From Chiloscyllium plagiosum (taxonomy: Eukaryota): 64,000 bases of DNA. The first letter of the stretch is position 1; every line of letters starts with the position of its first letter. Of the stretch, positions 14,363 through 54,946 are shown piece after piece. Location of the stretch: the NCBI RefSeq assembly GCF_004010195.1, contig NC_057718.1, forward strand, positions 88,564,233 to 88,628,232. The letters run 5' to 3'. The notes under the pieces are model-generated. The model had not been told where the DNA came from. It was given only the letters and a program-made list of their open reading frames with translations, and ran no database searches. The position numbers were made by a program, and so were the translations under genes.

Positions 14363-15307
14363 TTTTAAATGCAATTAGCTACATCTGGATTCCCAATAAA
14401 TCATATGTACTTATAATTGAACAATACTGGCCTAGCAAGCCTATTCTGCTGCCATTCAATAAGATTGTGTCTGATCTCTAACCTAACTCTATATACAGTA
14501 TATGCCCTTCCCTATATCCCTTAGTATCTACAGTTAACAAAATTTTATTAATCTCAGATTTAAAATGAGCAATTAGTTTAGCATCTGTTTGCTGCTTACG
14601 GATGAGAGCTCCAAACATTTTCCACCTTTTGTGTGTTGGACTGTTTCCTAATTTTGCTGCCAAGTGGTGTGGCTCCAATGTTTAGATTATGATCTTTATT
14701 CCTGGAGCTGGATTTAGTGGAGTCCACTAAAGTAGGCTTGATGACATGGGGGCCTGGGAGAAGCAGTTGGCAATGCCTGCATTGATTCCTGATGTTGGGA
14801 AAAGTGCCCCCAATTAAATCGGGTGTAGGCAGGGTAGGATGCAGGAACCCCACCTGCCAACAGTAAGAAGACAGGTAGGTTCATTAATAAATGGCTTAAA
14901 ACCCAATTATCCTTGAGTCGAGTGGAATTTAATGGTGGATCAGAGATCAACTGGGCTCACACAGGTTTCCATGAAATTCTAGTAGGTTGGTCTATAGCCT
15001 TGTCAGTTGACCCCCTATTGATTGGCAATCAATGTCCTGGCGTTGCAAAGTGAGGGTTGAAATGAAAAACACCCCTTAGCCTCCAGACCCTATTTTTCTC
15101 TCTCTGACAGATCCTTGCTTGTGACCTATATCCTATCCTGTATTCCAGATCCAAAGTCAATCCTGGTGATTGGACCTCAGGGGCTTAGCAACCACAGCTT
15201 CCTGCAATGGAGAACTGCTGGCTTCTGGTTGGCGGGCAGCTTTAAGGGTGGGGTTTCTGCCCCACTAGGGTCTAAATTACATGGGAGTCCCAGTGTGGGC
15301 CTGCCAT

Positions 15308-15610
15308 GGGCGACTCAGTGGTTAGCACTGCTGCCTCACAGCACCAGGGTCCCAGATTCGATTCCAGTCTCAGGCGACTGTCTGTGTGGAGTTTGCACGT
15401 TCTTCCTGTGTCTGCGTGGGTTTCCTCCGGGTGCTCCGGTTTCCTCCCACAGTCCAAAGATGTGCAGGTCAGGTGAATTGGCCATGCTAAATTGCCCACA
15501 GTGTTAGGTGCATTAGTCTAGGGAGATGGGTTTGGGTGAGTTACTCTTCTGAAGGTTGGTGTGGACTGGTTGGGCTGAAGGGCCTGTTTCCACACTGTAA
15601 GTAATCTAAT
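15308..15610 (+). mobile_element. HE1-like SINE
   Basis: Same body and tail as 12407-12750. Confidence 0.85.
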
Positions 15611-18600
15611 ATAAGTGCCTGATTGAGAGTTATTTATATCAGGCTGTCCTGCTCCATGGAAGTGGCATGGAATTCCACCAGTTTTTCGACCTCCAACCTA
15701 ACCTGGTTTATGAACCAAAGTCTCTCATCCTCCCAAATAGCAGAGAAAGTTTTCCTCCTGCTACTCTATCCATTTGCTCAATAAATGGCCAATCTCTATT
15801 CAAAATTTGACTCTTGAAGTTCATATATCATTCTGGCAAATTTATGTTGCGTTTTTTTCAAATATCTCCTTCCTAAACTGTGGTGCCCAGAACTGCTCAC
15901 AGTAATCTCTGTGTGCGTTTTAACCAGGGCTTTGTACTCGAGCTATGGCATTACCCCTTGTATTCTAATCATCTGGATTGAAGGAGCAGCATTCCATTAG
16001 CCTTTTGGATGATTTTCATGTCAATTTAATGATCTAGCATAGTCAAGTCTCTGTGAATCTCTATTGTTTTAGCTTTCTACTATTTAAGTACTTTCACTAT
16101 ATCAGATTGTAAAAAAAAGGTCTATCTTAATAAACATAATTATCCCACTATCATCCAAACTAAACCTGTTCAATAAAAATGCAATATTTGGGTAACATAC
16201 ACAGCTAACTATATAGAATACAGAATTATAAATGTATATCCCTGTAAAGATTTCTAAAATATGCAAATATACACACACTTCTCTGCAGAAATTGGCTTTC
16301 TGAAAATTAAATAGCCAATGGCTTATTGTTATAGGCAAAAAAAAGGCATAGGAAGTTCTGGCATATGTGGTCAAGCTACTAATGATTTGTTATGGTGATC
16401 ATAGTTGTCTCTGAAGTCTGGCGGGCTCAGGAAATGAAATTGTGAGATGTTCTTTCAATCACTCTTTCAAAAGAACAAATAGGGTTACTTTTCAGAAATG
16501 GGCAAGATCAAATGGGCAATGTGTTCACAACAAGCTTCCTTCCAACTTAGCTTTTTCTTAGCAAGCTTCCCTCCAACTGAACCAGATAAAACAGGAATCT
16601 CTCCAAACCTGTCACAGCCCCAGCAGGGTCTAAAGCAAAGCAAGTAGCCATTGTGAATCATGTGATTTCTAAGAAGACGTGTTAAAAAAAAAAGTCCAAT
16701 GTCCTCAGTTAACTTCAATAATGCCTTTAAAGCAATCACTCAAGTTACATCCACAAGACTCAAAATAAATTGTTTTTTCCACAATGCTTCAAAACCTGAG
16801 TCCTCCAAAAATGTTAAATAGAAAGAATTTTAATAATACAATCTGTACTGCTAAATAATGTTTCCGATCTCTGTGTTATTGACAATATGTGTCTAAATAT
16901 GTATATATACACACATATAGATCCCAGTACGAAGCTGTTATCAAATTTAGTGAACAGTTGAGGCCCGGCACAGATCCATCTGGCACCAGTACTCACATCC
17001 TGTTAAATAGAGTAGCTCTCCATTACGCCTTGTTTCTATCTCCTAGCATTCAACCAATTTTCTAATCAGATCAATAATTCATCTGCAATTCAATGAGCTT
17101 CAACTTTAGCAAAGTTTCTCAACAGAAACCTTAGCAAGTGTCTTCTGGAAGTCAGAACATTGAAATTCACTGCCCACTACTTTAACCATCTGTTCTACAA
17201 AGTTCAATGAGGTTCATCAAACATGACTAACCTTTATGAAAACAAAGTTTCATTAGCATGTCTGGGTGCTTACAGTTCTTCATAAACTTTAGTTAGGCTC
17301 CGTGCTTGCCTTGCATATCATAGTGACTGAAGGAGAAACCAAAGCCTGAGCTTTGAGCTACTAAATTGGTTCTACATTGGACGTGCAACCTATCTACTGG
17401 CCCACTGAAATAATTATGAGAAAGGACCAACATTTCATAATTTATTTGCAAAAAAACCTCAGCTCCCCAATTAAGGGAGGTTATTCTGAACAAGGTCAGG
17501 AAAGATATCTCAAACAGTGGTAGGCAGGTGTTCTAAATGGCAAGCTGCTTTCCTGGATCCCAAGTGACCCATTCCTGGCAATTGAATTACAGTGTAGATT
17601 CCAACTTTCCAGATTTTCTGCACACCTTTCTAAAATATGCTGTACTTATACATGTTATGAGATCTTGCCTGCAAACTCTGCCACTTCATTCAATGTGCAT
17701 AGGGATGATCCCTGGTGAGATCCTTCTCAGTTAATCTGCAGCTCATAAAATTATAGTCAGACTGTTTTCACACCTGCATTAGTACTAACATTGACTGATT
17801 GTCCATTTAGTTTAGGGCCACACTATAATTATGCTGCTAATGACAAGGGAGGATTGAGGGTGGAATGACATTAGTCATTGGGATAGTAGAAGGTGTGGCC
17901 AGACATGCCATTCAAAATTTTGGACTTATGAGAGATAATGAGGCATGCTGGGAAATCGAAACAAGTCTTGACCAAAAGTGACTGTGGTCAAAGACTCTGG
18001 AACAAACAAGCTGCAGCTAAGACGCACAGTATACAACTGATCCAGCAGCTGCAGACAATACAATATACACTTGAATTGGAATTGAATGGTATTACCCTGA
18101 ATGCAATCCTCAGGACAATCGGAACATCGAGCTTTTTAAAAATTAATATTTTTATTGAAAAGCAAGGTTTTTATAAAATTACAAAAAAAATTACAACACC
18201 AACAAACCAACAAGAGAAAAATATTACTCTATATGTATATAAAAGTAAAAGAGAAAAAACCCACACAAACAAAACACAACTACACTCATGTGCAAAATAG
18301 GCAGATCATTAAAGGTAATAAATAAATAAAACGGCTCAGCACAACAAACATTAGCTCTCGACCTCCGACAGTCCTAACTATTACACATAAATGTATTTGA
18401 AATTCTTCCTTCAAGGGCATCAAGTACACTAAATCAGATCATCATGGTTACACAAAAGGAGACAGTGAGGACTGCAGATGTTGGAGATCAGAGCTGAAAA
18501 ATGTGTTGCTGGAAAAGTGCAGCAGGTCAGGCAGCATCATCCATTTTACTAACACCCTCCACCCCCACCTCAAATTTACCTGGACCGTCTCAGACTGCTC

Positions 18601-19075
18601 CCTCCCCTTCCTAGACCTCTCCATTTCAATCTCGGATGACCGACTCAACATGGACGTTTACTATAAACCGACTGACTCCCACAGCTACCTAGATTACACC
18701 TCTTCCCACCCTGCCCCCTGTAAAAACGCCATCCCATATTCCCAATTCCTTCGCGTCTGCCGCATCTGCTCCCAGGAGGACCAATTCCAATACCGAACAA
18801 CCCAGATGGCCTCCTTCTTCAAAGACCGCAATTTCCCCTCAAACGTGGTTGACGATGCTCTCCACTGCATCTCCTCCACTTCCCGCTCCTCTGCCCTTGA
18901 ACCCCGCCCCTCCAATCGCCACCAGGACAGAACCCCACTGGTCCTCACCTACCACCCCACTAACCTCCAAATACATCGTATCATCCTGCGTCATTTCCGC
19001 CACCTCCAAACAGACCCCACTACCAAGGATATATTTCCCTCCCCTCCCCTATTAGCGTTCCGGAAAGACCACTCT

Positions 19076-19476
19076 NNNNNNNNNNNNNNNNNNNNNNNNN
19101 NNNNNNNNNNNNNNNNNNNNNNNNNNNNNNNNNNNNNNNNNNNNNNNNNNNNNNNNNNNNNNNNNNNNNNNNNNNNNNNNNNNNNNNNNNNNNNNNNNNN
19201 NNNNNNNNNNNNNNNNNNNNNNNNNNNNNNNNNNNNNNNNNNNNNNNNNNNNNNNNNNNNNNNNNNNNNNNNNNNNNNNNNNNNNNNNNNNNNNNNNNNN
19301 NNNNNNNNNNNNNNNNNNNNNNNNNNNNNNNNNNNNNNNNNNNNNNNNNNNNNNNNNNNNNNNNNNNNNNNNNNNNNNNNNNNNNNNNNNNNNNNNNNNN
19401 NNNNNNNNNNNNNNNNNNNNNNNNNNNNNNNNNNNNNNNNNNNNNNNNNNNNNNNNNNNNNNNNNNNNNNNNNNNN
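19076..19476. other. Assembly gap (401 N)
   Basis: Run of n bases. Confidence 1.
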
Positions 19477-19570
19477 CCTTAACCTCCTTCCACCTATCGC
19501 ATTCCCAACGCCCCTCACCCAAGTCCCTCCTCCCTATCTTTTATCTTAGCCTGCTTGGCACACCCTCCTC

Positions 19571-19606
19571 ATTCCTGAAGAAGGGCTTATGCCTGAAACG
19601 TCGATT
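19571..19606 (+). ncRNA. Minimal type-I hammerhead ribozyme motif (Penelope tail)
   Basis: attc-CTGAAGA-a-gggc-ttat-gcct-GAAA-cg-TC-gatt. Confidence 0.55.
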
Positions 19607-21037
19607 CTTCTGCTCATTTGATGCTGCCTGACCTGCTGCGCTTTTCTAGCAACACATTTTTCAGCTCATGGCTACACAAAAGCCCTAGTTTAAATGGCAG
19701 ATAAATCTACATCTAAATAGTCCAGAAAGGGCTGCCGTATCCTATAAAAATTTTCAGTTTTCCGGTGTACCATATTCATAAAATGTCCAGATGAATATGT
19801 TCCATGATAAGCCTATGCCAATCCGACAAACCCAGGGTGGTTTCAGAGGTCCAACACATTAGGATAATTTTCCTTGCACAGAAAGCAAGAACATTAATTT
19901 TTTTCCCATGAGGCCCAGAGAGGATATATTGGATAGACCAAGGATAAGAGAGATAGGGTCCACCTTAACATCAGCCCCCCCAAACCCTCTCTATAACTCC
20001 TGCCGTAGCACTCCAGTAAATACAGAGCCTGCAGCAAGTCCATAAACAGTGAGAGCGCCAATGCTTGTTTTACACTTAGGGCATAATCAAGATACTCCCA
20101 TCTTAAATTCTGAGAGACAGTCTGGGGCCAGATGGACCCTCTGCCAAATCTTTAGCTGCATGGCATGGGTCCTATTACAGATTAAAATCTTCCTCGCATT
20201 TTCGCAAATGGCCCCCCATGTCTCCATAGAGATCTCAACCCCAATTCTCTCTCCCAGACCCCACAAAGCCGCTCAATGTCTTCTGAAAGATCACCCCCTA
20301 ACATCTGATAAAGAGTGCTAATAGAGAGGGTACTCTTAGCATGAAGCATCCTTTTCTCCATAACAGATCTGCAGGGGTTGGTCAAAAGTGTGGTTCCTTT
20401 TTGAATAAACTCCCTGACCTGAAAAAAGCAAAAAAAAGTCTCTGTCAGTTAAACCATATTTATGGATTATTTGGTTAAGGACATCATTTTTCACCTTCAA
20501 ATAAGTCGTCCAAACAGGAGATTCCCCTAGTTGCCCACTGGGGTCCACTATCCCTGGTTGATAACCTGGCAAATCAGCTATAGGGGTAAGAAAGGACGTT
20601 TTGGATGTATTAGCCTTCCTCTGCCGCATTGTCCTCCGTGCCTTAACAGTATTGATAATTACCAGATTACAACAATATTCTGTGACCATCTTCAATTTAT
20701 CTAAAAACAGCAGATAATGAGGGGACATTTTGTCTGGGAGGCCTCAGTATCCAGCCACATTGACGCCAGGTCTTTACAAGCCCAGTCACTAACAAAAGAT
20801 AGAAGGGAACTTGATTGGTATCTTCTAATACCTGGAAAATCCACTCTGCTCGCCCCCCCCCGAGGCAACTACAATTTAGACAGCTTGAAAGGGGGTTGCC
20901 TGCAGCATCAAATAAAGGAGCTAAACCATCCATTAAGTCTCTGGAATGTTTGCCTAGGAGAAATTAAGGGCAGCCTTCTACAGGATATAACAAACGGGGG
21001 AGAATATTTAAGTTGTTTACCAGACACGGGGGTAAGT

Positions 21038-21313
21038 AGGAGAAAGTGATGACTGCAGATGCTGGAGATCGGAGCTGAAAAATGTGTTGCTGGAAAAGCG
21101 CAGCAGGTCAGGCAGCATCCAAGGAGCAGGAGAATCGACATTTTGGGCATAAGCCCTTCTTCAGGAATGAGGTCGGTGTGCCAAGCAGGCTAAGATAAAA
21201 GGTAGGGAGGAGGGATTTGGGGGAGGAGCATTGGGAATGCGATAAGTGGAAGGAGATTAAGGTGAGGGTGATAGGCCAGAGAGGGGGTGGGGCGGAGAGG
21301 TCGGGAAGAAGAT
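21038..21313 (-). mobile_element. Penelope tail fragment (hammerhead core mutated)
   Basis: Reverse of the 55370-55629 tail; GAAA changed to AAAA. Confidence 0.85.
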
Positions 21314-21329
21314 ATAACATCAGAAAATG

Positions 21330-21651
21330 CTTCCTTTCTGAACCTCCAACCAGGGTCAGGTGTGGAGGAATGAAGGGAGAGGGGGGTTCTCTTATCAAAG
21401 GAGCCCAGTTCCACCTTCCACAACCACAGGTAGAGATAGAGGGACACAGCAGGAGAACATGCGGCAGCCAGCGCGGTGCTAACACTGAGTGCACAGGACA
21501 CTACGTGCAAGAATGTAGACCCCATGCGCGGCCGCATTCACAGCCACAGGGACCACCAACTGCAGCTTCAACGCCCAAGGGACCCCCAGACGATCTAACT
21601 GACTTAACAGACGACTCTCTTAACAGATTGGAACAACTCGCTAATGACTGA
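21330..21651 (+). pseudogene. gag: gag C-terminus remnant with a CCHC zinc knuckle
   Basis: tgc taa cac tga gtg cac a gga cac tac gtg caa gaa tgt reconstructs, with a small indel, to C-x2-C-x4-H-x4-C (..TGHYVQEC); Pro-rich tail, stop at 21649-21651. Confidence 0.5.
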
Positions 21652-22184
21652 CAGCAAGGATATGTTACACAACAGGCTAGACATGACAGAACTCCTTGAT
21701 AATTCCCTGATATACAAAGAAATTGAAAGACCCCAACTCATTGTAACTCAGACCCCAGATGGCAGATCCACAACATGAATACATGATAGTACTAAAAGGG
21801 AAAAGCAGACTGAACCAGAGTGTCAAATGATAACACCCAACATTCAGGGAATCACCACTTGAGGGAATGACAGGACATGGACATGGGAACTGGGTGGATA
21901 CATCTTGCCAAGCCCCCAGAGACTGAGGATTCATGACAGACTGATGAGTCTCAGTTGGGTGCCAATTTAATGAATGCACTAAACCATGAATCCTGACAGT
22001 CTCTCAAGGTGAGGTGCGACTGTTTCTGATGGTCAAAACTCAAGTGCATTTTCACACATTTCTATACTCCCATTGGGACCACCTGTTATTCCTGTATGCA
22101 CTGATGGGATTGGCCAGGTTACAACTCTTCAGTTGTCCCAGCGTTGTTCATCGGATATAATCTCCATATCGGAATCTGGCCCAT

Positions 22185-22272
22185 GGTCACAATGACCGTC
22201 CCATCTTCACGTTTCATTTGTAGGTCACAATGACCGCTTTGTCTTACATTTAATTCGTTGGTCATAATGACT
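22185..22272. promoter_or_regulatory. Three tandem ERE-type palindromes (GGTCAnnnTGACC)
   Basis: GGTCAcaaTGACC 22185-22197, aGGTCAcaaTGACC 22222-22235, GGTCAtaaTGACT 22260-22272; 38/37-bp period. Confidence 0.6.
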
Positions 22273-22484
22273 GCCTCATTTCAGCCTTTTTCGATTGCTG
22301 CATGGTGAGGCCATTTAAACCCATGAACTCCTACCATGAAACCCGAGGCCATGTTGATTGGAAACCAAGGTTAGAACTTACCAGGCATCTCATTCCGATT
22401 AACATTCAATAACAAAAAAAAAGTGGGGGAGGGTGAGGGTATTTGCATTAAACCTGGTGTAAACTATTCAGATATTAGACAAGA

Positions 22485-22639
22485 GTCTGGATGTAGGTTT
22501 GCTTGCTGAGCTGCAAGGTTCATTTTCAGACGTTTCGTCACCATACTAGGTAACATCTTCGGTGAGCCTTCGGACGAAGCAATGCTGGTGTTTACTGCTT
22601 TCTATTTATATGTTTGGGTTTCCTTGGGTAAGGTGTTTC
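22485..22639 (-). mobile_element. Second-family Penelope tail fragment with a hammerhead-like motif
   Basis: 11-bp TSD attagacaaga (22474-22484, 22640-22650); homologous to the termini of 33068-33665. Confidence 0.8.
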
Positions 22640-23731
22640 ATTAGACAAGAATAACAACAGAAACAACCTTGATCTCTCCCCAGGACAACCATAACTACAC
22701 AAGAACATAATCAAGATCTACTTCATTGAGATTATCACCATCACTAGAAACAACACACAAGAAATACCAAACCGACCGGGATATATGTACCCAGGGTCCT
22801 TATGTTTTGGCCCACTGGATGCTGGAAAACATGAGGATGGTGTGTTCTGGGTACACCCCAATAATAGTACAATGTTCAGATGAAACAACCAGCAGGCAGT
22901 ATATAAGAAAACAAAGGGGAGCTCAGATGATTGGTACCTGAGTGTAGAAATCACTGGTGATTGATGGGAATTCTCAAACAATGGATGCCCTGAGATAAGA
23001 TGCTTAGCAAGCAGCTCAGAAAAGGGATTAGAACTCGAGCACCAGTGCCCCGGGAAACTCATAGAGAGGGAGTTACATTAAAGTTACAACTTGATGCAAG
23101 GATTTTTGGTACCGGTGCTCCAACATATAAATTAATTCCTTGGTCCGCCTTGTGTCACATGTGTCTGCGTTGTTAATCCTGGTTACCCTGGTACTCTGCA
23201 CCACCCTCACTGGTAAAGAGAACCATCGCAAAGGCTGAACCTCTAGAGACTTCACTCAATTCACGGTCTCCACGAGCTTATTAAAAGCTATAGCAACATA
23301 GTAAGTATTTGTCTAGCCGAGTAAATATTCATTTATCCTCTTGTTTGTATAAAACGTCCTCCGGATTATTGGTTCATTTGTACACAGCAACACTTGCTTG
23401 ATCACTGTTCACTCCAGTTTATAACATTTGCTCGATTATTTTTGTTTATGAATTCTTTTTTTCTTCACCAATGTCTCATTTAGTTCTAATCTACCATGTT
23501 TGTTTGATTAACCATTAAGTCCAAATTTTAATATTCCATTTAGATATAGTTTGATGATATTTGCTTGATTTTAGTTAGGTGTGATTTTCCAGTATGCTAT
23601 CTGTAAGAGTTCAGCTGTTTAAGTATGTGTTCTGCTTTTCTTAGACCTGCATGATCATGTAGTCACACACAGGAATTGGTCAATGATCATGTGATCCATT
23701 ATGTTTCATGTTCAGGATCAAGAGGAGGGAC

Positions 23732-24848
23732 TGTGGCTGGACGGGCTTCTCAAAATGATGGACTAATGAAAAATGGTCAATAAATGAGGCATGCTGGGAA
23801 ATTGAGACAAGCCTTGACTAAAAGTGATTGTGCTCAAAGATTCTGGAATAAACAAGCTGCAGAATGCAGACAGGGAACATCTCCGGGACAACCGCACCAA
23901 TCAACCACACCGCCCCGTGGCCCAATATTTCAACTCCCCCTCCCACTCTGCCGAGGACATGGAGGTCCTGGGCCCTTCATCCCCTCCCCCACTCACCCAT
24001 TGTACTCTATGCTACTTTCTCCTCTAGCTTATCTCTCCACGTTTCAGGTTCTCTGCCTTTATTCCTGATGAAGGGCTTTTGCCCAAAATGTCGATTTCGA
24101 AGCTCCTTGGATGCTGCCTGAACTGCTGTGCTCTTCCAGCACCACTAATCCAGAATCTGGTTTCCAGCATCTGCAGTCATTGTTTTTACCAGGCTGCAGC
24201 TACAGACAGACTGTATACAAATTAACCAGCAGCTGCAGGCAATACAATATATATTTGAATTGGAATTGAATGGAATTGACCTGAATGCAATCCCCAGGAC
24301 AATTGGAAACATTACCAGATACATGAGTACCTCACACCCTTATTTGGAGAGGGCTACCTAAGCTACGTGCTCCCAACACCTCCAGGAATTGATACCCAAG
24401 AACCGCCTGCCATTGATATGTCAATGCCTGGTTGGGCCCAATTGATCAAGGTGATCGAGCCCTGATCAATCTATTGGTGGATATCGAAGAGGGCGCGAAG
24501 ATTTCTAAGTATAACAATTGCCGCAACACCACCCTCAGCATGGTAACTCAAGACCAACCATCAAGAAGGGAAGACACTCCTTGGACCATTGGGAGAAGAC
24601 CACTGGTCATCGCCACGTGGATCAGGGTCAAGATGTAGTGTAGTGGGATATGATCATCCAGAATTAAGTTAAAGCACAGGATAGTTGATTAGATTTATAG
24701 TGTACATTTTTATTTTCTAGTGTATTCTGTTATTATAATACTAACTGTGTTAAATAAATATATATTATTGTTTATCATTATTAAGAGTCGACTCACAGTT
24801 TTGTTGCTAGATATCAGAGTTAAAGCACACTGTGCGGCAGGTGCAACA
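23732..24848 (+). mobile_element. 3' LTR (about 800 bp once the Penelope insert at ~23875-24189 is removed)
   Basis: PPT aagaggaggga immediately upstream; TGTGGC...GCAACA imperfect inverted termini; AATAAA ~24753; collinear with 53646-54450. Confidence 0.8.
23875..24189 (+). mobile_element. Internally deleted Penelope fragment
   Basis: REHLRD..TNQPHRPVAQYFNSPSHSAEDMEVLG followed by the tail; absent from the LTR copy at 53646. Confidence 0.85.
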
Positions 24849-24918
24849 AAAGCTAGAGTGTTAATACAGGTGTGAAAATTATGATGGGCTTTGATAGAGT
24901 GGGACTGTGGGGCGCAGG

Positions 24919-25030
24919 TGCTTGTGGCACAGTGGTATTGTCCCTACTTTCGATCCGGGCGGCCCAGGTTCAAGTCCCAACTACTTGAGCGATGTGTAAC
25001 AATATCGCTGAGCAGGTTGATTAAAAATTA
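24919..25030 (+). mobile_element. Short tRNA-derived SINE
   Basis: tggcacagtgg A box and ggttcaagtcc B box; related head-to-tail pair on the minus strand at ~57965-58197. Confidence 0.5.
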
Positions 25031-25088
25031 TCTAGCGTAGAGGGTAAGAGATTGTTTCCACTGGCAAAAGTGTTAATAATCAGAAAGC

Positions 25089-25464
25089 GGGGGATCCAAG
25101 ATGGCGACGACCCAGTAAGACTGAGTCTATAGTGCTCCTCCCAAGACTTGGGCACAGTGGGTCACCTACCCCCTACCAAGCTCACCAAATCATTTATAAA
25201 TCATTTATAATAGTTTAGTAACTCAATTAGTTGTGTAATGTTACATTTAAGCAACTTTATCCTAAGTTAAAATGACTAAAGGGAAGGGAGCCCGCAGCTC
25301 TCAGCAAGCAGGAACCCCTCCCCCACACTCTCCAGCTGCAGCAGAAATTTTGGCTATTGTATATTTGAGCTAATTGTATATCAATGTTTATATCTGAGAG
25401 TTTTGTTTATTTTTGTAAACTTGTAAAAATGTTAAATTTCTAATAAAAATATCCATAAAAAAAA
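25089..25464 (+). mobile_element. Bipartite non-autonomous L1 derivative (5'UTR plus ORF1 start fused to a 3' end with polyA)
   Basis: 11-bp TSD aatcagaaagc (25078-25088, 25465-25475); 5' gggggatcCAAGATGGCG; MTKGKGAR start at ~25272; AATAAA and polyA. Confidence 0.75.
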
Positions 25465-25508
25465 AATCAGAAAGCACCGAGTTAAGAGAATTGGTTAAAA
25501 AATCCACT

Positions 25509-28500
25509 TGGCAAGATGGCGGCGATTCAGTAGAACTGCTGTGGATGGCTCTGCTGAACAGCCAAGGCATATTGGCGTTTTTTTTTGCCATCCCTGGCAA
25601 AAGAGTTATTCATTTAAAGTCTGGGGAACACATGTTCATTAATATTTGGGAGTGGGAAGGATGCCAAAGGGAAAAGGAGCGATTGAGCAAACAGCAACAG
25701 GGAGAACACTCCCAGCAGCACCAGGCATGCCAGCAACAGCGGCCTCTCCCGAACTCCTGGGGGACTTAATGGGCTCGCAGGAATTGATGGCAGCAATGGC
25801 AAGACTTACCGCGAAGGGTGAGGCTGCGATCGAGGAGATCCGTGCCCAGATCCAACCCACCGTGTCCATGCTGCAAAAGAGGGAAATGGTTGATATCGCC
25901 CTGTTGCAGGAAACTCATCTTGACGGTGGGGAACACCTGAAGTTACAACAGGGGGTTTTGACTGGGTATTCTTTTCATTTCTTACTACTAAAAGTAGGGG
26001 AGTGGCGGTGCTTCTCCAGAAAAATCTTCCATTCACATTATTACAGCAGGTGAAAAATGAGCAAGAGCGGTTTGTGATACTTAAGGCCCTGATACATGGG
26101 AAGGAAGGTGGCATTTTAAATGTCTACTGTACCCCGGTGCATCCCCTCAAAGTTTTGATTAGTGCCTTCTCTGAGTTGAGTGCCTTTGGAACAAGGAACA
26201 TTATTATGGGGGTGGAGTTTCAATTGCCCTTTAGATCCGACAGTGGACAGGATGCCTAGTTTATCTCTTCGCAGGCCAAGCAGGTGACTGACTTATGCGA
26301 GGAGTTGGGGTGGTGGACATTTGGAGATGTCTTCACCCCACCGGCAGGAACGTCACCCTTTTTTCAAACCCACATAAAGGTGACACAAGGATTGTTCTTT
26401 CTCTGGCTCCCTCCACCCTTCTGGATTTGATTATGGGTTGTAAAATTGGGAACATAGCTATTTCTGATCACACGGAGGTTAAGGCCAAGAGTGCGGGGTT
26501 AGGTTCACGGCACTGGCGGCTGGATCCTTTCCTCCTCAAGGATTCCAAATTTGTGGAATATTTTTTGAGGGGGTTTCAGGAGTTTTTGACTATCAACTCA
26601 CACACAGCTAGTAGTCTGTCTATGCTAGGGGAGACTCTAAGGCCTTTGCTAGGGGATTAGCTATTTCCTATTCGGCTAGCCGGAAACAACAGAAGGAGGA
26701 ACAGCAGCGTCTACTTGAGACGCGGTTGAAAGCCGCCGAGGCGGCTCATTTTGCACAGCATTTGGTGACTAAGCTACAGCACATCACGGTACTCCAGGCT
26801 GCCTTGAATTCAATACTGACACAAACTGTGAAGGAAGAACTTGCTTTTGCTAGACAAAGGTTTGTTCGAGTATGGAGGTAGGCCAGGGAAGTATTTAGCG
26901 CTTCTAACTGGGAAAAAGTGTTCTCCCCAATCCATTACTGCAGTTAGAGACAGCACCAGGGTCCTTACATGTGATGCAAAAAGGATTAATGAGGCTTTTC
27001 AGAGTTTTTATTCTGAATTATATTGGTCTGAAGGATGGGTGGGCCAAAATGGAAACCTTTTTTAAGAGCCTGGACCTCCTGGGGGGTAACCTTGGAACAG
27101 GCCTCTCTCGTCAATGCCACCTTGACAGTTCAGGAAATAAAGGAGGCAGCTAGGCAACTTCAAATGGGAAAATGGCTGGCCCTGATGGTCTTCTGGGTGA
27201 GTTTTATAAGGTGTTTATAGGGATTCTGTCAGGGCCGATGCTAGAAATGTACAATCACTCCTATATGCAAGAATGCCTACTACTATCTTCGAGAGGAGTT
27301 AATATTTCCCTCATTCTTAAGAAGGGGAACGTTCCTGAGGATTGTGCCTCATCTAGGCCCATCTCTCTATTAAATTCAGATTTTAAGATTCTGTCAAAGA
27401 GTTTGGCTCTGAGATTGGAGAAGGTGTGGTCCTATATTGTCAAAGTGGACCAGACAGGTTTTAAAAGGGGCCTTAAGTCCTCTAATAATATTAGAAGGTT
27501 GCTGAATATGGTCCGAGTATATTAGCAACAATCGATCCAGGGGTTGGTGATTTCCTTAAATGTAGAGAAAGCATTTGACCAAGTTGAATGGCCGTATCTC
27601 TTTTACGTCTTAGAGCAGTTTGGATTGGGTGGAGTCTTTGCTAGGTGGGTGGAGGTATCATATCACCACCCACTGGCCGCGGTCATCACCATTGGAGTGA
27701 AAATCAACTAGGATTGGTAGGGGTAGTCGGCAAGGCTGCCCCCTCTCATCGTTGTTGTTTACATTGGTGATAAAGCAGCTGGCAGAGACCATTCGTCAGA
27801 ATGTCCTCATAATCACTCCGGAAGTGGGATCGAGGGCACACAAGATTACACTGTACGCGGATGATGTCCTTCTGTTTTTATCGAACCCAATGACCTCCGT
27901 ATTCCATCTGATACAATGTATTAATTCATTTGGGGCTTGTTCAGGATATAAGATCAACTTTGCAAAGTCAGAGGCTATGCCTTTAGGGAACCTTAAGGAA
28001 ATGCCAGAGGTTGAAGGTGGCCCTAGGTTCTACCTTAAGTGGTCACAAGTGGATTTCCAGTATCTAGGTATTTTTATTTTTATTATCCCTATGTTTGATC
28101 AGTTACTTCGGACTAACTTTGTTCATCTGCTCGACAATATTAGGCAGGATCTCCAAAGATCGGAGGCTCTTCCAATTTAGTGGTTAGGCCGAATAGCCCT
28201 TATAAAGATATGCTCCCTATAATGTTTCCCAGACCAACGTTGCGGAAACTAATGGGTTGGTTTAGTTCCTTTGTCTGGCGTCGTGGGAGGCCCCTCATCA
28301 AACTTACTACATTACAGTTGCCTCAAGGAGAGGGAGGAGTTGATTTCCCAGACATCAGGAGGAATTGAGTTCCCTGCTGTCCTTTGCGTGCGATTGGGGA
28401 AGTAATGATCCAGGCTCAATATGGCTGGATATTGAGGTCTCTCAAGTAAAGTGCCCTCTTATTAACCTGCTGTTCATGGATAAGATGAGGACAGTTATGG

Positions 28501-30019
28501 ACCACTGCCAGAACTCCATTGTTATTAGTATGGTTAAGGCATGGAGACCAATGTGTCAGAGTGAGGGTTGTTTATCCAAGACTTTGCCACTCACACCCAT
28601 AGTTGGTATGCCGGGGTTCTGAGCTGGAAATGTGTTGCTGGAAAAGCGCAGCAGGTCAGGCAGCATCCAGGGAACAGGAGAATCGACGTTTCGGGCATAA
28701 GCCCTTCTTCAGGAATGGGGAAAGTTTGTCCAGCAGGCTAAGATAAAAGGTAGGGAGGAGGGACTTGGGGGAGGGGCGTCGGAAATGTGATAGGTGGAAA
28801 GAGGTCAAGGTGAGGGTTCTGACCAGGGATGATGGACTCTGGGTTCAAACTATGGGCAGTGGGAGGAGTTTCCAGTTTGGGAGAGCTGTTTGAGGGGGAG
28901 GTTATGATGCCTTTCAAGCAATTGAGCCGCAAATGCCGGCTGTCCAGTAGCGAATCTTTCCATTTTTTTCAGGTTAGGGATCTCACTAAGCCCTATAAGC
29001 CTGATACAGAGAGGTTGTTGCTATGTGCCACAAGCACCTTTTTGGTTAGTGCCCTCTATCGCCTACTGGGTGGCAGGGCCTGGCAGGATATTAATCGGTT
29101 ATGTGAGGTCTGGGAGCAAGAGCTAGGAGTGGAGATCTCTTCTGAAATGTGGGAGGACATATGAGAGAACGCGCGAAAGATCTCAATCTGTAATAGGACA
29201 TACGCTACGCAGTTAAAAGTTCATCTGGCACCGGACCATCTGGCGAAGTTTTAAAAAGGGGCATCTCCAATGTACCCCAATGTAAGATAAGTGGAAGTAC
29301 TCTTACCCATTGTTTCTGGACATGCCACAGGCTCCGTGTTTATTGGAGCGCTGTGGTGGGACAGATAGGGAGGATATTGAGAACTGAAGTCAAAGTAGAC
29401 CCGATATCTCTCCCCCGAGGTCTACCAAATTTATCACCTTTAGACGGGCGTGGGAAGAACCTATTCAATATTCTTACTTACGGTGCAGGGAAGAATATTC
29501 TGATGAATTCTTGGGTGTCTGAGAACCCACCGGGCTTGTCGGGATGGCGGAAATTAATTATGGAGCACATTCCCTTGGATTTTTTCAGAAACATGGTGCA
29601 CACACAACAGACCTTTTTTATAAGGCAGCCTTTTTTGCGTTATTTGGACACAGATTTGTCTGCTATCTTAACAAGGGCATGTGTTTAACCAGGATGGTTT
29701 GGTTTGCTGAGCCCTGAGTCCTGGAAGGGGGAACTCCTGAGTTAATACAGGTATATATACAACACTCCCATTTTTTTGTTTGGGACCTTGGTGCCGAGCA
29801 TTGTTATTTTGTTTATTTAGTCACTTACTTATTTATTGGTGTTGTTTTGTACAGCGTTTGGTTTGGTTTTGCTTTATGGGGTAGGTTAGTTGTTAGAAGA
29901 GAATAGTTGTATTGTAATTTGCGTTTTTTAAATTATACTGGTATTCGTTATATTTTCTATAACTTTATATTTTTGTAAAGTCAAAAAAAAGTTTTTTTTT
30001 GCTAATAAATATATTTAGA
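25509..30019 (+). mobile_element. L1-clade LINE with 5' end, most of ORF1 deleted, decayed ORF2 (EN, RT, Cys domain)
   Basis: TSD taaaaa(a/g)tccact 25496-25508 / 30020-30032; motifs DIALLQETHL, ISDH, WRLDPFLL, GPDG..EFYK, RPISLLNSDFKILSK, DQTGF, RQGCPLS, YADDVLL, THCFWTC. Confidence 0.92.
28620..28816 (-). mobile_element. Penelope tail nested in L1, with an intact hammerhead core (28681-28716)
   Basis: Minus strand attc-CTGAAGA-a-gggc-ttat-gccc-GAAA-cg-TC-gatt; gggttctga repeated at both junctions. Confidence 0.85.
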
Positions 30020-40649: not shown

Positions 40650-41700
40650 CCCCATTATAATCAAACCTCTCCCAATCACGTACTATTGCCCCTCCCCAAA
40701 ACATACAATGTTCTAATCACTTTCTCTCCCAATCCATCATTATCTCAATGAGTCACTGTCCCGAATGCCCACTGTCCCCTTTGAGGAGAAAGTGAGGTTT
40801 GCAGATGCTGGAGATCAGAGCTGAAAATGTGTTGCTGGAAAAGCGCAGCAGGTCAGGCAGCATCCAGGGAACAAGAGAATCGATGTTTCGGGCATAACCC
40901 CTTCTTTAGGAATTCCTGAAGAAGGGCTTATGCCCGAAACGTCGATTCTCTTGTTCCCTGGATGCTGCCTGACCTGCTGCGCTTTTCCAGCAACACATTT
41001 TCAGCACTGTCCCCTTTCCCAATCATACACTTTCCTGATTACCCCTCTTCCAATCACTCAGTATCTGCATCGTTCTTTTTTCAATCACTTCTTATTCAAT
41101 CACCCCTTTGCCATTTATTCATTATCTGGATCATTCCTTCTCCCAATCACTCACCATTGTTCCCCTCCAAATTACCCAATTTTTCAATTACCCCTCTTCC
41201 AATTACTCACTATCCACATCACCACTCTCCCAATTATTCATTATCCCCATTACCGCTCTCCCAATTACTCACTATCCTCATCACCCCTCTCCCAATCACA
41301 CACTATCCCCATCACCCCTCTCCCAATCCCTCACTATCCCCATCACCCTTCTCCTAAGTTCTCGATATCCAGATCACTATCATGCTTGGTACCTCTCCGA
41401 ATCCCTCACTATCCCAATAACAACTTCTTCCAATCACTCATTATCCTGATCAGCTTCTCTCTCAAAGACTCACTATCTGGATTACTCCTGTCCCAGTCAC
41501 TCACTATCATAATTAGTATGTCTTCCAGTCACCATTGTCCCAATTGCCCTGTCTACCAATCATTTACCCCCCCCTTTTGTGTTCTGTCCCAATCACTCAC
41601 TACTCAATCGCCCACTCTCCCAACGACTTACCATCTCTTTCCTTATTGATCTATTTATCAAAGTTACCCATCCTCCCAGTTACCACCCACTCTAGTTACT
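40650..41700. repeat. Degenerate 31-bp C/T-rich minisatellite
   Basis: Unit cactatccccatcacccctctcccaatcact; starts at 41270, 41301, 41332. Confidence 0.8.
40783..41004. mobile_element. Palindromic Penelope-tail mini-element with back-to-back hammerhead motifs
   Basis: 93-bp arms 40820-40912 / 40913-41005 centred on ggaattcc; 13-bp TSD cactgtccccttt (40770-40782, 41005-41017). Confidence 0.9.
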
Positions 41701-53645: not shown

Positions 53646-54450
53646 TGTGGCCGGATGGGCCATTCAAAATGATGGATTTGTGAAAAATGAGGCATGCTGG
53701 GAAATTGAGACAAGCCTTGACCAGAAGTGATTGTGCTCAAAGATTCTGGAATAAACATGCTGCAGAATCCAGACAAGCTGCAGCTAGACAGACAGTATGC
53801 AACTGACCCAGCAGCTGCAAACAATACTACATACACTTGAATTGGAATTGAATAGAATCGATCTGAATGCCATTTCCAGGACAATGAGAAACATCAAGTT
53901 CTTTACCAGACACGGGGGAAGCCTCACACCCTTATTTGGAGAGGGATACCTGACCTACATGCCCCCAACACCTCCAGGAACGAATGCTCAAGGACCATCC
54001 AGCCATTGACATGTCAATGCCTGGTTGGGTCTGATCGATCAGGGTGATCAAGCCCTGATCAATCTATTGGCGGACATCAAAGACTCTCCCAAAAGGGTAC
54101 TAAGATTTCTAAGTACAAGAATCACCACAACACCACCTTCAGGGGTGGTAACCCAAGTCCAGCCGCTGTGAAGCGAAGACACCCCTGGGACCACCTGGAG
54201 AAGACCAGACAATCATCGCCACGTGGATCAGGGTCGAGATGTAGTGTGGTGGTGTATGATCATTCAGAGTTACGTTAAAGTTCAAGGTAGTTGATTAGAT
54301 TTACAGTGTAAATTGTTAGTTTGCAAAGTATTTTATTATAATATTAATTGTGTTAAACAAATAAATATTATCATTTATAATTTTTATGAGTCGAGTTGCA
54401 GTTGCTTTGCGAGGTATAAGAGTTAAACACACTCTGTGGCAGGTGCAATA
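53646..54450 (+). mobile_element. Solo LTR of the 17894-24848 family (805 bp) carrying an ORF
   Basis: Collinear with 23732-24848 from TGTGGC to GTGCAA(T)A; similarity stops sharply at both ends; no clean TSD. Confidence 0.8.
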
Positions 54451-54946
54451 AACCAGTTAATTGTTATTTACATGATGAGTCTGAGTGATCATAATCCTTT
54501 ATACATGAATTTTTTTTGTAGAAAACAGAAATACCACAATGATCTCTATTTCTCTCATTTGAACTTCATTTCTATCAGACTATGCCAACTTAGCAGCTGG
54601 CAAATTTGGTTTTCCAAACAGTGCTGCTAACTCTGGGTACTTCAACCCAGAACTGGGAGAAGACTGGAAACTTCCACAGCGTGGTTCTGGCACGGAGTGG
54701 CAACAGAGGCTTTGAGCATAGCCAAGAAAGTGAGCACTACAGTTGAGAAGAATGCAGTAGATACTGGAAACCATAGGGCTTTTAAACAAAATCAGATATA
54801 CAGTCTGGAGAGGTTCCAGATTCAATTCCCAGACTTTGCTGAAATTGCTAATCATAATGGGATAATAATATGGGGCTCGATAGTTAGCCTCAGTGAGGCT
54901 GGGCAGCCAGGTTGCTAATTTCCTTCTTGATTAGGGTGGGAAATAT

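What the first reader, a model, noticed from the sequence alone, without database searches (positions are those of the whole stretch)
22185..22272. Triplet of estrogen-response-element palindromes inside the LTR element
Seen: GGTCAcaaTGACC twice and GGTCAtaaTGACT once, at 38/37-bp spacing; the palindromes are better conserved than the spacers. A TTTAAA follows at 22314-22319 and ATGs follow. Established: GGTCAnnnTGACC is the consensus ERE, tandem EREs act synergistically, and some complex retroviruses use hormone-responsive (MMTV) or internal (foamy virus) promoters. Inference: an estrogen-inducible internal enhancer/promoter for the element's accessory region, possibly timing expression to reproduction. 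Alternatively these are small RNA stem-loops used in packaging.
Basis: partly seen in the sequence, partly recalled or inferred. Interest (0 to 1): 0.75.

Follow-up and report, generated by a model that had tools for sequence, protein, structure and literature searches.

The report
Decaying estrogen-type repeats in shark retroelement
Three estrogen-receptor-like palindromes sit in a 38-base tandem repeat inside an old, broken retrovirus-like element of a likely shark genome; they were likely a switch for the element's last gene while it was active, but other copies carry imperfect versions, this copy shows no sign of being preserved, and no estrogen response has been tested.

Summary
The triplet is real (22185, 22223, 22260). 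It is three units of a diverged 37/38-bp tandem repeat in the internal region of a multi-copy LTR element, about 1.45 kb before the 3' LTR. Between units 1 and 2 the 13-bp cores differ at 0 of 13 sites and the spacers at 10 of 25 (Fisher p 0.007; 0.045 after allowing for hindsight). That contrast is shared by other copies, so it predates the family's spread, and most displayed copies keep the TTTAAA. Against a tuned estrogen switch: only 1 of 6 flanking bases fits PuGGTCA; unit 2's right half starts TG, CG or CA in different contigs, a CpG-decay pattern; spacing and unit number vary; orthologues in two related organisms show no protection of the cores. No gag, pol or env and no homologue of the ORF remnants was found; the one RNA run laid gave no test. 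Best reading (0.45): a fossil nuclear-receptor-type enhancer and internal promoter of the once-active element; estrogen receptor specifically about 0.25. Rivals: neutral duplication polished by CpG decay (0.3), an RNA splice or hairpin signal (0.2).

The parts
22185..22197 (.). Unit 1 core, perfect 13-bp IR3 palindrome; last base is the C of a CpG and reads T in most other contigs
   Evidence: row 22197 (X2 41.6 of 49.3, X10 21 of 45.8, X14 20.4 of 20.4, X19 111.5 of 111.5 summed depth)
22198..22222 (+). Spacer 1, 72% pyrimidine, ends in an acceptor-like TAG whose G is the first base of unit 2
22223..22235 (.). Unit 2 core, perfect here; at 22231-22232 other contigs show TG, CG or CA
   Evidence: tables 3 and 7
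22236..22259 (+). Spacer 2, 71% pyrimidine; one base shorter than in paralogues, hence 37 instead of 38 bp
   Evidence: tables 4 and 7
22260..22272 (.). Unit 3 core, one arm mismatch; laid in most paralogue contigs; changed at 22268 in the orthologue of organism C
22273..22311 (+). Downstream stretch that can fold as a hairpin (-15 kcal/mol, z -2.5); paralogues carry an extra outward-facing pair of half-sites at about 22292-22308 that the window lacks
   Evidence: table 7
22314..22319 (+). TTTAAA, TATA-like, 42 bp after unit 3
21320..22184 (+). Upstream internal region with broken reading frames (ORF remnant A, cysteine-rich end); no family found
22330..23300 (+). Downstream broken reading frames (ORF remnant B) ending in a hydrophobic stretch; limits inferred; no family found
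22470..22640 (-). Very high-copy insert (likely a Penelope-type end piece; name recalled), absent from paralogues, present in the orthologues
   Evidence: tables 2, 5c and 8
23720..23731 (+). Purine run (polypurine-tract-like) just before the 3' LTR
23733..24849 (+). 3' LTR-like repeat, TG...CA, AATAAA at 24753, Penelope-like insert at 23872-24189
17894..21031 (+). Broken upstream LTR copy: 17894-18138, an L1/Tx1-like insert (about 18130-21015), a short resumption near 21015-21031; rest missing; whether it is the partner of the 3' LTR is not shown
53646..54452 (+). Solo copy of the same LTR

Best explanation
The triplet is a tandem repeat of a 38-bp unit in the non-coding middle of an old LTR element, and it was likely a nuclear-receptor-type DNA enhancer that, with the TTTAAA behind it, would have driven an internal transcript for the element's 3' reading frame while the element was active; at this locus it is likely a decaying fossil. 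Shown: the repeat, its position, the core-over-spacer contrast, its presence in 6-10 paralogue contigs per run, variable unit number and spacing, the mixed CpG states, and unprotected decay in orthologues. Inferred: that selection in the replicating element kept the cores, that a receptor dimer bound each GGTCA-n3-TGAC(C/T) with several weak sites acting together, that transcription started near 22340, and that the downstream frames were a gene. The estrogen receptor is the natural candidate because IR3 spacing of GGTCA is its signature, but poor flanks and extra half-sites in another arrangement leave other receptors open (estrogen receptor specifically about 0.25).
For: Core vs spacer between units 0/13 vs 10/25, p 0.007. 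Paralogues carry the same unit-2 spacer as the window, so the units diverged before the family spread (tables 3, 7, 8). The repeat begins exactly at the first palindrome; the 38 bases before it do not align with the units. A period of 38 is not a multiple of three, so the array is unlikely to be coding. One contig of organism B keeps both arms of unit 3 with a different 3-base spacer (table 7). Paralogues add two more half-sites before the TTTAAA, which most displayed contigs keep. In interior positions 22260-22271 table 3 lists one difference, in one contig, among the 6-10 contigs per run that cover it (the table is visibly incomplete). The CG state gives half-site GGTCG, and position 1 is not contacted and prefers purines (PMC1904296 section 14), so it may still bind. 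Precedents: foamy-virus internal promoters ahead of accessory genes (PMC6955096), the MMTV hormone response element and gonadal activity of the snakehead retrovirus LTR (PMC12193657), spawning-timed WDSV (PMC3185748).
Against: Hindsight-corrected chance of so long an exact run is 0.045, and the locus was picked for its palindromes out of thousands of windows. Only 1 of 6 flank bases fits PuGGTCA. Unit 2 is broken (CA state) in single contigs of all three organisms and reads CG in the majority line of 4 contigs of organism C. Orthologue changes fall in the cores 2 of 6 times (3 of 7 counting the X14 state), with 30% expected. Spacing is 37, 38 or about 44 bp and one contig has two units; 38 bp is 3.6 helical turns, so neighbours are not in phase. 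The LTRs hold no site with fewer than 2 mismatches. TTTAAA is common and CATTTAAA is a weak TATA. No homologue supports the downstream frame as a gene.
Confidence: 0.45

Rival explanations
1. Neutral history: a short segment holding a near-palindrome was duplicated in the element, drifted, and methyl-CpG decay after insertion turned some cores into perfect EREs; the scan then noticed the copy that happens to have two.
For: TG, CG and CA at 22231-22232 and C/T at 22197; window CpG observed/expected 0.28; the G at 22236 that makes units 1 and 2 match over 14 bases is private to this locus in organism A; paralogue pieces are 82-89% identical (table 8), like the LTR copies at 82-91%; flanks do not fit; hindsight p only 0.045.
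Against: Unit 3 shows T at 22268 in all listed paralogue contigs, so at least that arm is not a CpG product; spacers diverged 40-60% while cores diverged 0-15%; two more copies of the same pentamer follow in paralogues.
Confidence: 0.3
2. RNA signal: each unit is a branch-point-like TGAC plus a pyrimidine tract, the AG at 22222-22223 is a splice acceptor for a subgenomic RNA of the 3' frame, and GGTCA pairs with TGAC to weaken or tune it; or the units are small hairpins for export or internal translation.
For: All three spacers are 71-72% pyrimidine against 44-46% in most flanking internal sequence; 7 of the 10 differences between spacers 1 and 2 are transitions; the AG at 22222 ties for first among 144 AGs by upstream pyrimidines and has a TNAY 28 bases upstream. 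22180-22320 folds at z -2.96 on + and -1.92 on -. Fish retroviruses make accessory RNAs by splicing (PMC3185748, PMC12193657).
Against: Only one of three units ends in AG; the minus-strand control reaches the same or higher scores (15-17 of 20 among 125 AGs); 22040-22180 and 23300-23720 are also 59% pyrimidine. Single hairpins are weak (-3 to -7 kcal/mol, 3-base loops) and repeats of a palindrome beat shuffles by construction. Half-sites in both orientations fit double-stranded DNA better.
Confidence: 0.2
3. Host co-option: the locus now serves as an estrogen-responsive enhancer for a host gene, for example the estrogen receptor gene that earlier notes place about 0.45-0.5 Mb away.
For: Two perfect cores in organism A and in one run of organism B; unchecked notes e1-9927034 and e1-8021476 place an estrogen receptor gene 445-509 kb beyond the window.
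Against: Orthologue divergence in the triplet (3/131, 5/131) matches the flanks (2.4-5.8%); organism C has changes in cores 1 and 3, and two runs of organism B differ at 22197. No host-gene domain among 147 open frames of the window.
Confidence: 0.05

Closest known systems
Consensus estrogen response element (PuGGTCA-n3-TGACCPy; PMC1904296, passages and sections 13-14 read)
   Same: 13-bp core with 3-base spacer, perfect twice and one mismatch once; tandem arrangement before a TATA-like box
   Different: 5 of 6 outer flank bases miss the purine rule; cores vary between copies at CpG sites; binding and response untested
MMTV hormone response element (mention in PMC12193657; details recalled)
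   Same: Several steroid-receptor-type sites upstream of a start site in an LTR element
   Different: MMTV sites lie in the LTR and are glucocorticoid-type; these lie 1.45 kb inside the element, are GGTCA-type, and the LTRs lack them
Foamy-virus internal promoter (PMC6955096, passages)
   Same: TATA-like box in the 3' part of the element ahead of an unassigned reading frame; the LTR also appears to hold a reading frame
   Different: Foamy promoters sit in the end of env and answer to a viral transactivator (recalled); here no env or pol was found and the upstream sites are host-receptor-like tandem repeats
Complex fish retroviruses SnRV and WDSV, and SnRV-like shark ERVs (PMC12193657 and PMC3185748 passages; PMC4422223 part 1 of 2)
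   Same: Extra 3' reading frames, activity tied to gonads or spawning, relatives known in cartilaginous fish
   Different: Their accessory RNAs are spliced from the LTR transcript; no sequence link to this element was found
Retroviral enhancer direct repeats such as the three HTLV-1 21-bp repeats (recalled, no call)
   Same: Three imperfect tandem units with a kept core and drifting spacers
   Different: Those are in the LTR with CRE cores

Membership tests
Estrogen response element | 13-bp GGTCA-n3-TGACC core | tested here: met
   2 of 3 perfect, 1 with one mismatch
Estrogen response element | Purine before each GGTCA (15-bp palindrome) | tested here: not met
   1 of 6 positions (rule from PMC1904296)
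Estrogen response element | Arms kept better than spacers between the units | tested here: met
   0/13 vs 10/25, p 0.007; hindsight p 0.045
Estrogen response element | Arms kept better than spacers in orthologues | tested here: not met
   2 of 6 changes in cores, 30% expected; few events
Estrogen response element | Perfect palindrome shared across family copies | tested here: not met
   unit 2 TG/CG/CA, unit 1 last base mostly T; tables incomplete
Estrogen response element | Receptor binding and estradiol response | not testable with these tools
   needs EMSA, reporter or ChIP
LTR retroelement | Long direct repeats with TG...CA ends and a purine tract before the 3' copy | tested here: met
   three copies start at the same TG; two end at the same place (CA, and TA in the solo copy); 13-17 contigs per run in three of four runs (9 in the fourth) cross 23700 towards the LTR
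LTR retroelement | Target-site duplication and primer-binding site | tested here: inconclusive
   flanks match at 3 of 5 for the pair and not for the solo copy; the end of the upstream LTR is missing
Endogenous retrovirus | pol with downstream env (criterion of PMC4422223) | tested here: not met
   nothing in this copy; other copies could not be read
Foamy-type internal promoter | TATA box at the 3' end of env ahead of accessory genes | tested here: inconclusive
   TTTAAA present and mostly shared; env not identified
Foamy-type internal promoter | Transcripts starting behind the TATA box | tested here: inconclusive
   0 reads from about 2% of one single-cell run on 131 bases; the tool calls this no test
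MMTV-type hormone-responsive LTR | Response elements inside the LTR | tested here: not met
   no site with fewer than 2 mismatches in either full LTR copy
3' splice site | Branch point, pyrimidine tract and YAG in order | tested here: inconclusive
   met at 22195-22223, but the minus-strand control scores as high

The most novel reading that the evidence does not exclude
An extinct complex LTR element of sharks carried an estrogen-driven internal promoter, a tandem ERE array with its own TATA box, that switched on a 3' accessory gene in breeding females; this would join the MMTV hormone switch and the foamy-virus internal promoter in one element.
Probability: 0.22. Interest if true: 0.65.

Novelty: new member of a known kind. 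Interest (0 to 1): 0.3.

Why it matters
If it works as read, it is a hormone-controlled internal promoter in a vertebrate LTR element, which my eight paper searches (open-access library only) did not show, and it offers a testable link between fish retroelements and host breeding. If not, it is a useful warning: CpG decay can turn near-palindromes in old repeats into perfect EREs, so one striking copy says little about its family.

Tried and rejected
No whole genome was available. Rfam on 15000-26000: one chance hit. Pfam on 18 open pieces, 9 X-read frames and 147 open frames of 78 aa or more: nothing for this element; 5 hits, all in other repeats. Protein searches for remnant B, the LTR frame and remnant A against longer proteins: none at E 0.01. 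The full HMMER search gave one hit, P0003, an eightfold tandem-repeat translation matching 32 residues at 34%; rejected as an artefact. Pattern scans of viral and metagenome contigs for the triplet and the LTR: 0. Earlier notes near the place or by sequence: none. The look-alike search by language model was not obtained for the ORF remnants, so remote homology stays open. I first took the purine run at 22415-22432 for the polypurine tract; rejected, as the LTR starts at 23733. Packaging signal: set low for position. Dating with the rate assumed in PMC4422223 was not used, as that rate is a guess by its author. Table 3 omits known differences (22197 is absent) and one search showed 40 of 980 rows, so no full per-site count of paralogues was possible.

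Full report
Observation. The three palindromes are at 22185, 22223 and 22260, spaced 38 and 37 bp, with TTTAAA at 22314-22319. Two perfect GGTCA-n3-TGACC sites against 0.04-0.08 expected in 64 kb, and six half-sites in 100 bp, make this the densest cluster of the window. With one mismatch allowed the window total (5) is reached by 8 of 100 shuffles. The sites are not independent. They are units of one tandem repeat, missed by the tandem finder but clear by alignment; the 38 bases before unit 1 and after unit 3's spacer do not align. Units 1 and 2 differ at 0 of 13 core and 10 of 25 spacer columns (Fisher p 0.007); an exact run of 14 or more appears somewhere in 4.5% of random placements of those 10 differences. 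Unit 3 differs from units 1 and 2 at 2 of 13 core and 14-15 of 25 spacer columns.

Setting. Self-comparison shows an 800-bp repeat at 23733-24849 (with a Penelope-like insert), a solo copy at 53646-54452 and a broken copy from 17894. All three begin at the same TG; the 23733 copy follows a purine run, ends in CA and has AATAAA about 95 bp from its end. Target-site duplications are not recognisable, and the upstream copy is no closer to the 3' copy (82-87%) than to the solo copy (84%), so the pairing is not shown. Between 21320 and 23732 lie two sets of broken frames with the triplet between them. No Pfam family or protein relative was found for them or for the frame in the LTR; the single hit was a repeat artefact. 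Pfam on 147 open frames found only domains of other repeats. So this is an LTR element of unknown family; 'retrovirus' and 'accessory region' are possible, not shown.

Other copies. Runs of three coded organisms hold the stretch. I laid four DNA runs on 21320-23760 (40 of 980 difference rows shown) and three of them plus one RNA run on 22172-22302 (8, 11 and 7 contigs laid, 24 of 27 pieces and 18 of 22 loose-end rows shown). Orthologues are recognisable because they run into the locus-specific insert at 22470; they differ from the window by 2.4-5.8%. Paralogue pieces are 82-89% identical, the same range as the LTR copies.

What the copies show. First, paralogues have the same unit-2 spacer as the window, one base longer, so the period was 38/38 and the units had diverged before the family spread (tables 4, 7). 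Second, unit 2 is not perfect family-wide. At 22231-22232 the three orthologues and three paralogue contigs list no change, and the majority lines of 5 contigs in B and 2 in A read TG; the majority line of 4 contigs in C reads CG; single contigs in A, B and C read CA. That is the pattern of methyl-CpG decay (my knowledge; one search found no paper joining it to EREs). The last base of unit 1, also in a CpG, is T in most other contigs, and two runs of organism B differ there. Third, unit 3 is laid in most contigs with one listed change in 22260-22271, in the orthologue of C; one B contig keeps both arms with another 3-base spacer. Fourth, spacing of about 44 bp occurs, and one C contig has two units. 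Fifth, paralogues carry two more half-sites, facing outward, before the TTTAAA; the TTTAAA is kept in three displayed rows (10 contigs) and lost in one (2 contigs). The same paralogous loci probably recur across organisms, so these are not independent counts, and table 3 omits differences near the ends of the stretch.

The locus today. B differs at 3 of 131 bases, none in a core; C at 5 of 131, with 22268 listed and 22197 inferred. Counting events, 2 of 6 fall in the 30% that is core (p 0.75 for depletion). There is no sign of host selection, on few events. The RNA run gave 0 reads from about 2% of its data, which is no test.

Is it an ERE? The consensus is a palindrome of PuGGTCA; positions 6 and 1 are not contacted but prefer purines, and G+2 is contacted (PMC1904296, passages and sections 13-14). 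One of six outer flanks fits. The CG state keeps a purine at position 1 and may still bind; the CA state changes G+2. So the array looks like several weak sites, not three tuned ones. Cooperation among weak tandem EREs is my recall; one search returned no paper that tests it.

RNA reading. The spacers are 71-72% pyrimidine; the AG at 22222 ties for first among 144 on the plus strand with a branch-like TNAY 28 bases upstream, but the minus strand gives equal or better scores and only one unit has an AG. The region folds at z -2.96, expected of repeated palindromes; single hairpins are -3 to -7 kcal/mol.

Mechanism. I commit to a cis-acting DNA array of the once-active element (0.45): receptor dimers would bind two or three IR3 sites and the extra half-sites 40-130 bp before a weak TATA box and start a transcript near 22340 for the 3' frame. 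On that geometry the ATGs at 22323 and 22336 would precede the start, leaving 22351 in this decayed copy. Repeat, position, contrast and decay are shown; binding, start site, gene and hormone are inferred. Neutral duplication with CpG decay (0.3), an RNA signal (0.2) and host co-option (0.05) remain.

Known kinds. Hormone response in an LTR (MMTV) and gonadal activity of the snakehead retrovirus LTR are in PMC12193657 (passages); internal promoters ahead of accessory genes in foamy viruses in PMC6955096 (passages); spawning-timed WDSV in PMC3185748 (passages); shark ERV lineages in PMC4422223 (part 1 of 2) and PMC4977317 (passages); PMC7778262 (passages) mentions nuclear-receptor sites in Alu. 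Other papers were seen as search listings only, and no supplements were read; shark ERV data sets in supplements could hold this family. Eight searches showed no estrogen-driven internal promoter in an LTR element; the library lacks most subscription papers. Two unchecked notes describe similar ERE-like repeats that faded on comparison; they are not support.

Verdict. It is a plausible fossil regulatory repeat of a known kind, less striking in the family than in this copy, and cheap to test. Interest 0.3; the estrogen-driven internal promoter has probability about 0.22 and would deserve 0.65.

Noticed in passing
window 17932-18126, 23784-24640, 53647-54300: The LTR seems to hold a decayed reading frame of roughly 200 codons in its 5' part, open for 65 codons in the upstream copy; like nef, sag or bel2 in position (names recalled). 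No Pfam or protein hit.
   Followed up: partly
window 22030-22105: End of ORF remnant A has a CxC...CxxC cysteine cluster in one frame, as in some viral transactivators; the snakehead retrovirus 3'ORF has a cysteine cluster too. No homologue found.
   Followed up: partly
window 23131-23238: Hydrophobic, transmembrane-like stretch with a short basic tail at the end of remnant B; could be a membrane protein or a captured host sequence.
   Followed up: no
window 23770-23785: The three LTR copies differ in length at one spot; the 3' LTR has an 8-base insertion there that holds a GGTCA half-site.
   Followed up: no
window 40816-41009 and 41014-41623: A 97-bp arm inverted repeat with no spacer (96%), followed by a 31-bp C/T-rich minisatellite.
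   Followed up: no
window 25080-30000 and 18130-21015: Two decayed L1/Tx1-like elements, 66% alike; the first has RVT_1 hits and two similar 5' starts (about 25100 and 25515); the second interrupts the upstream LTR.
   Followed up: partly
table 5, window 22034-22644: Some paralogue contigs skip 370-600 bases that include the triplet (bases between not known), so copies without it or with a very different version may exist.
   Followed up: no
window 19077-19476: 400-base assembly gap inside a Penelope-like insert, within the upstream LTR region.
   Followed up: no
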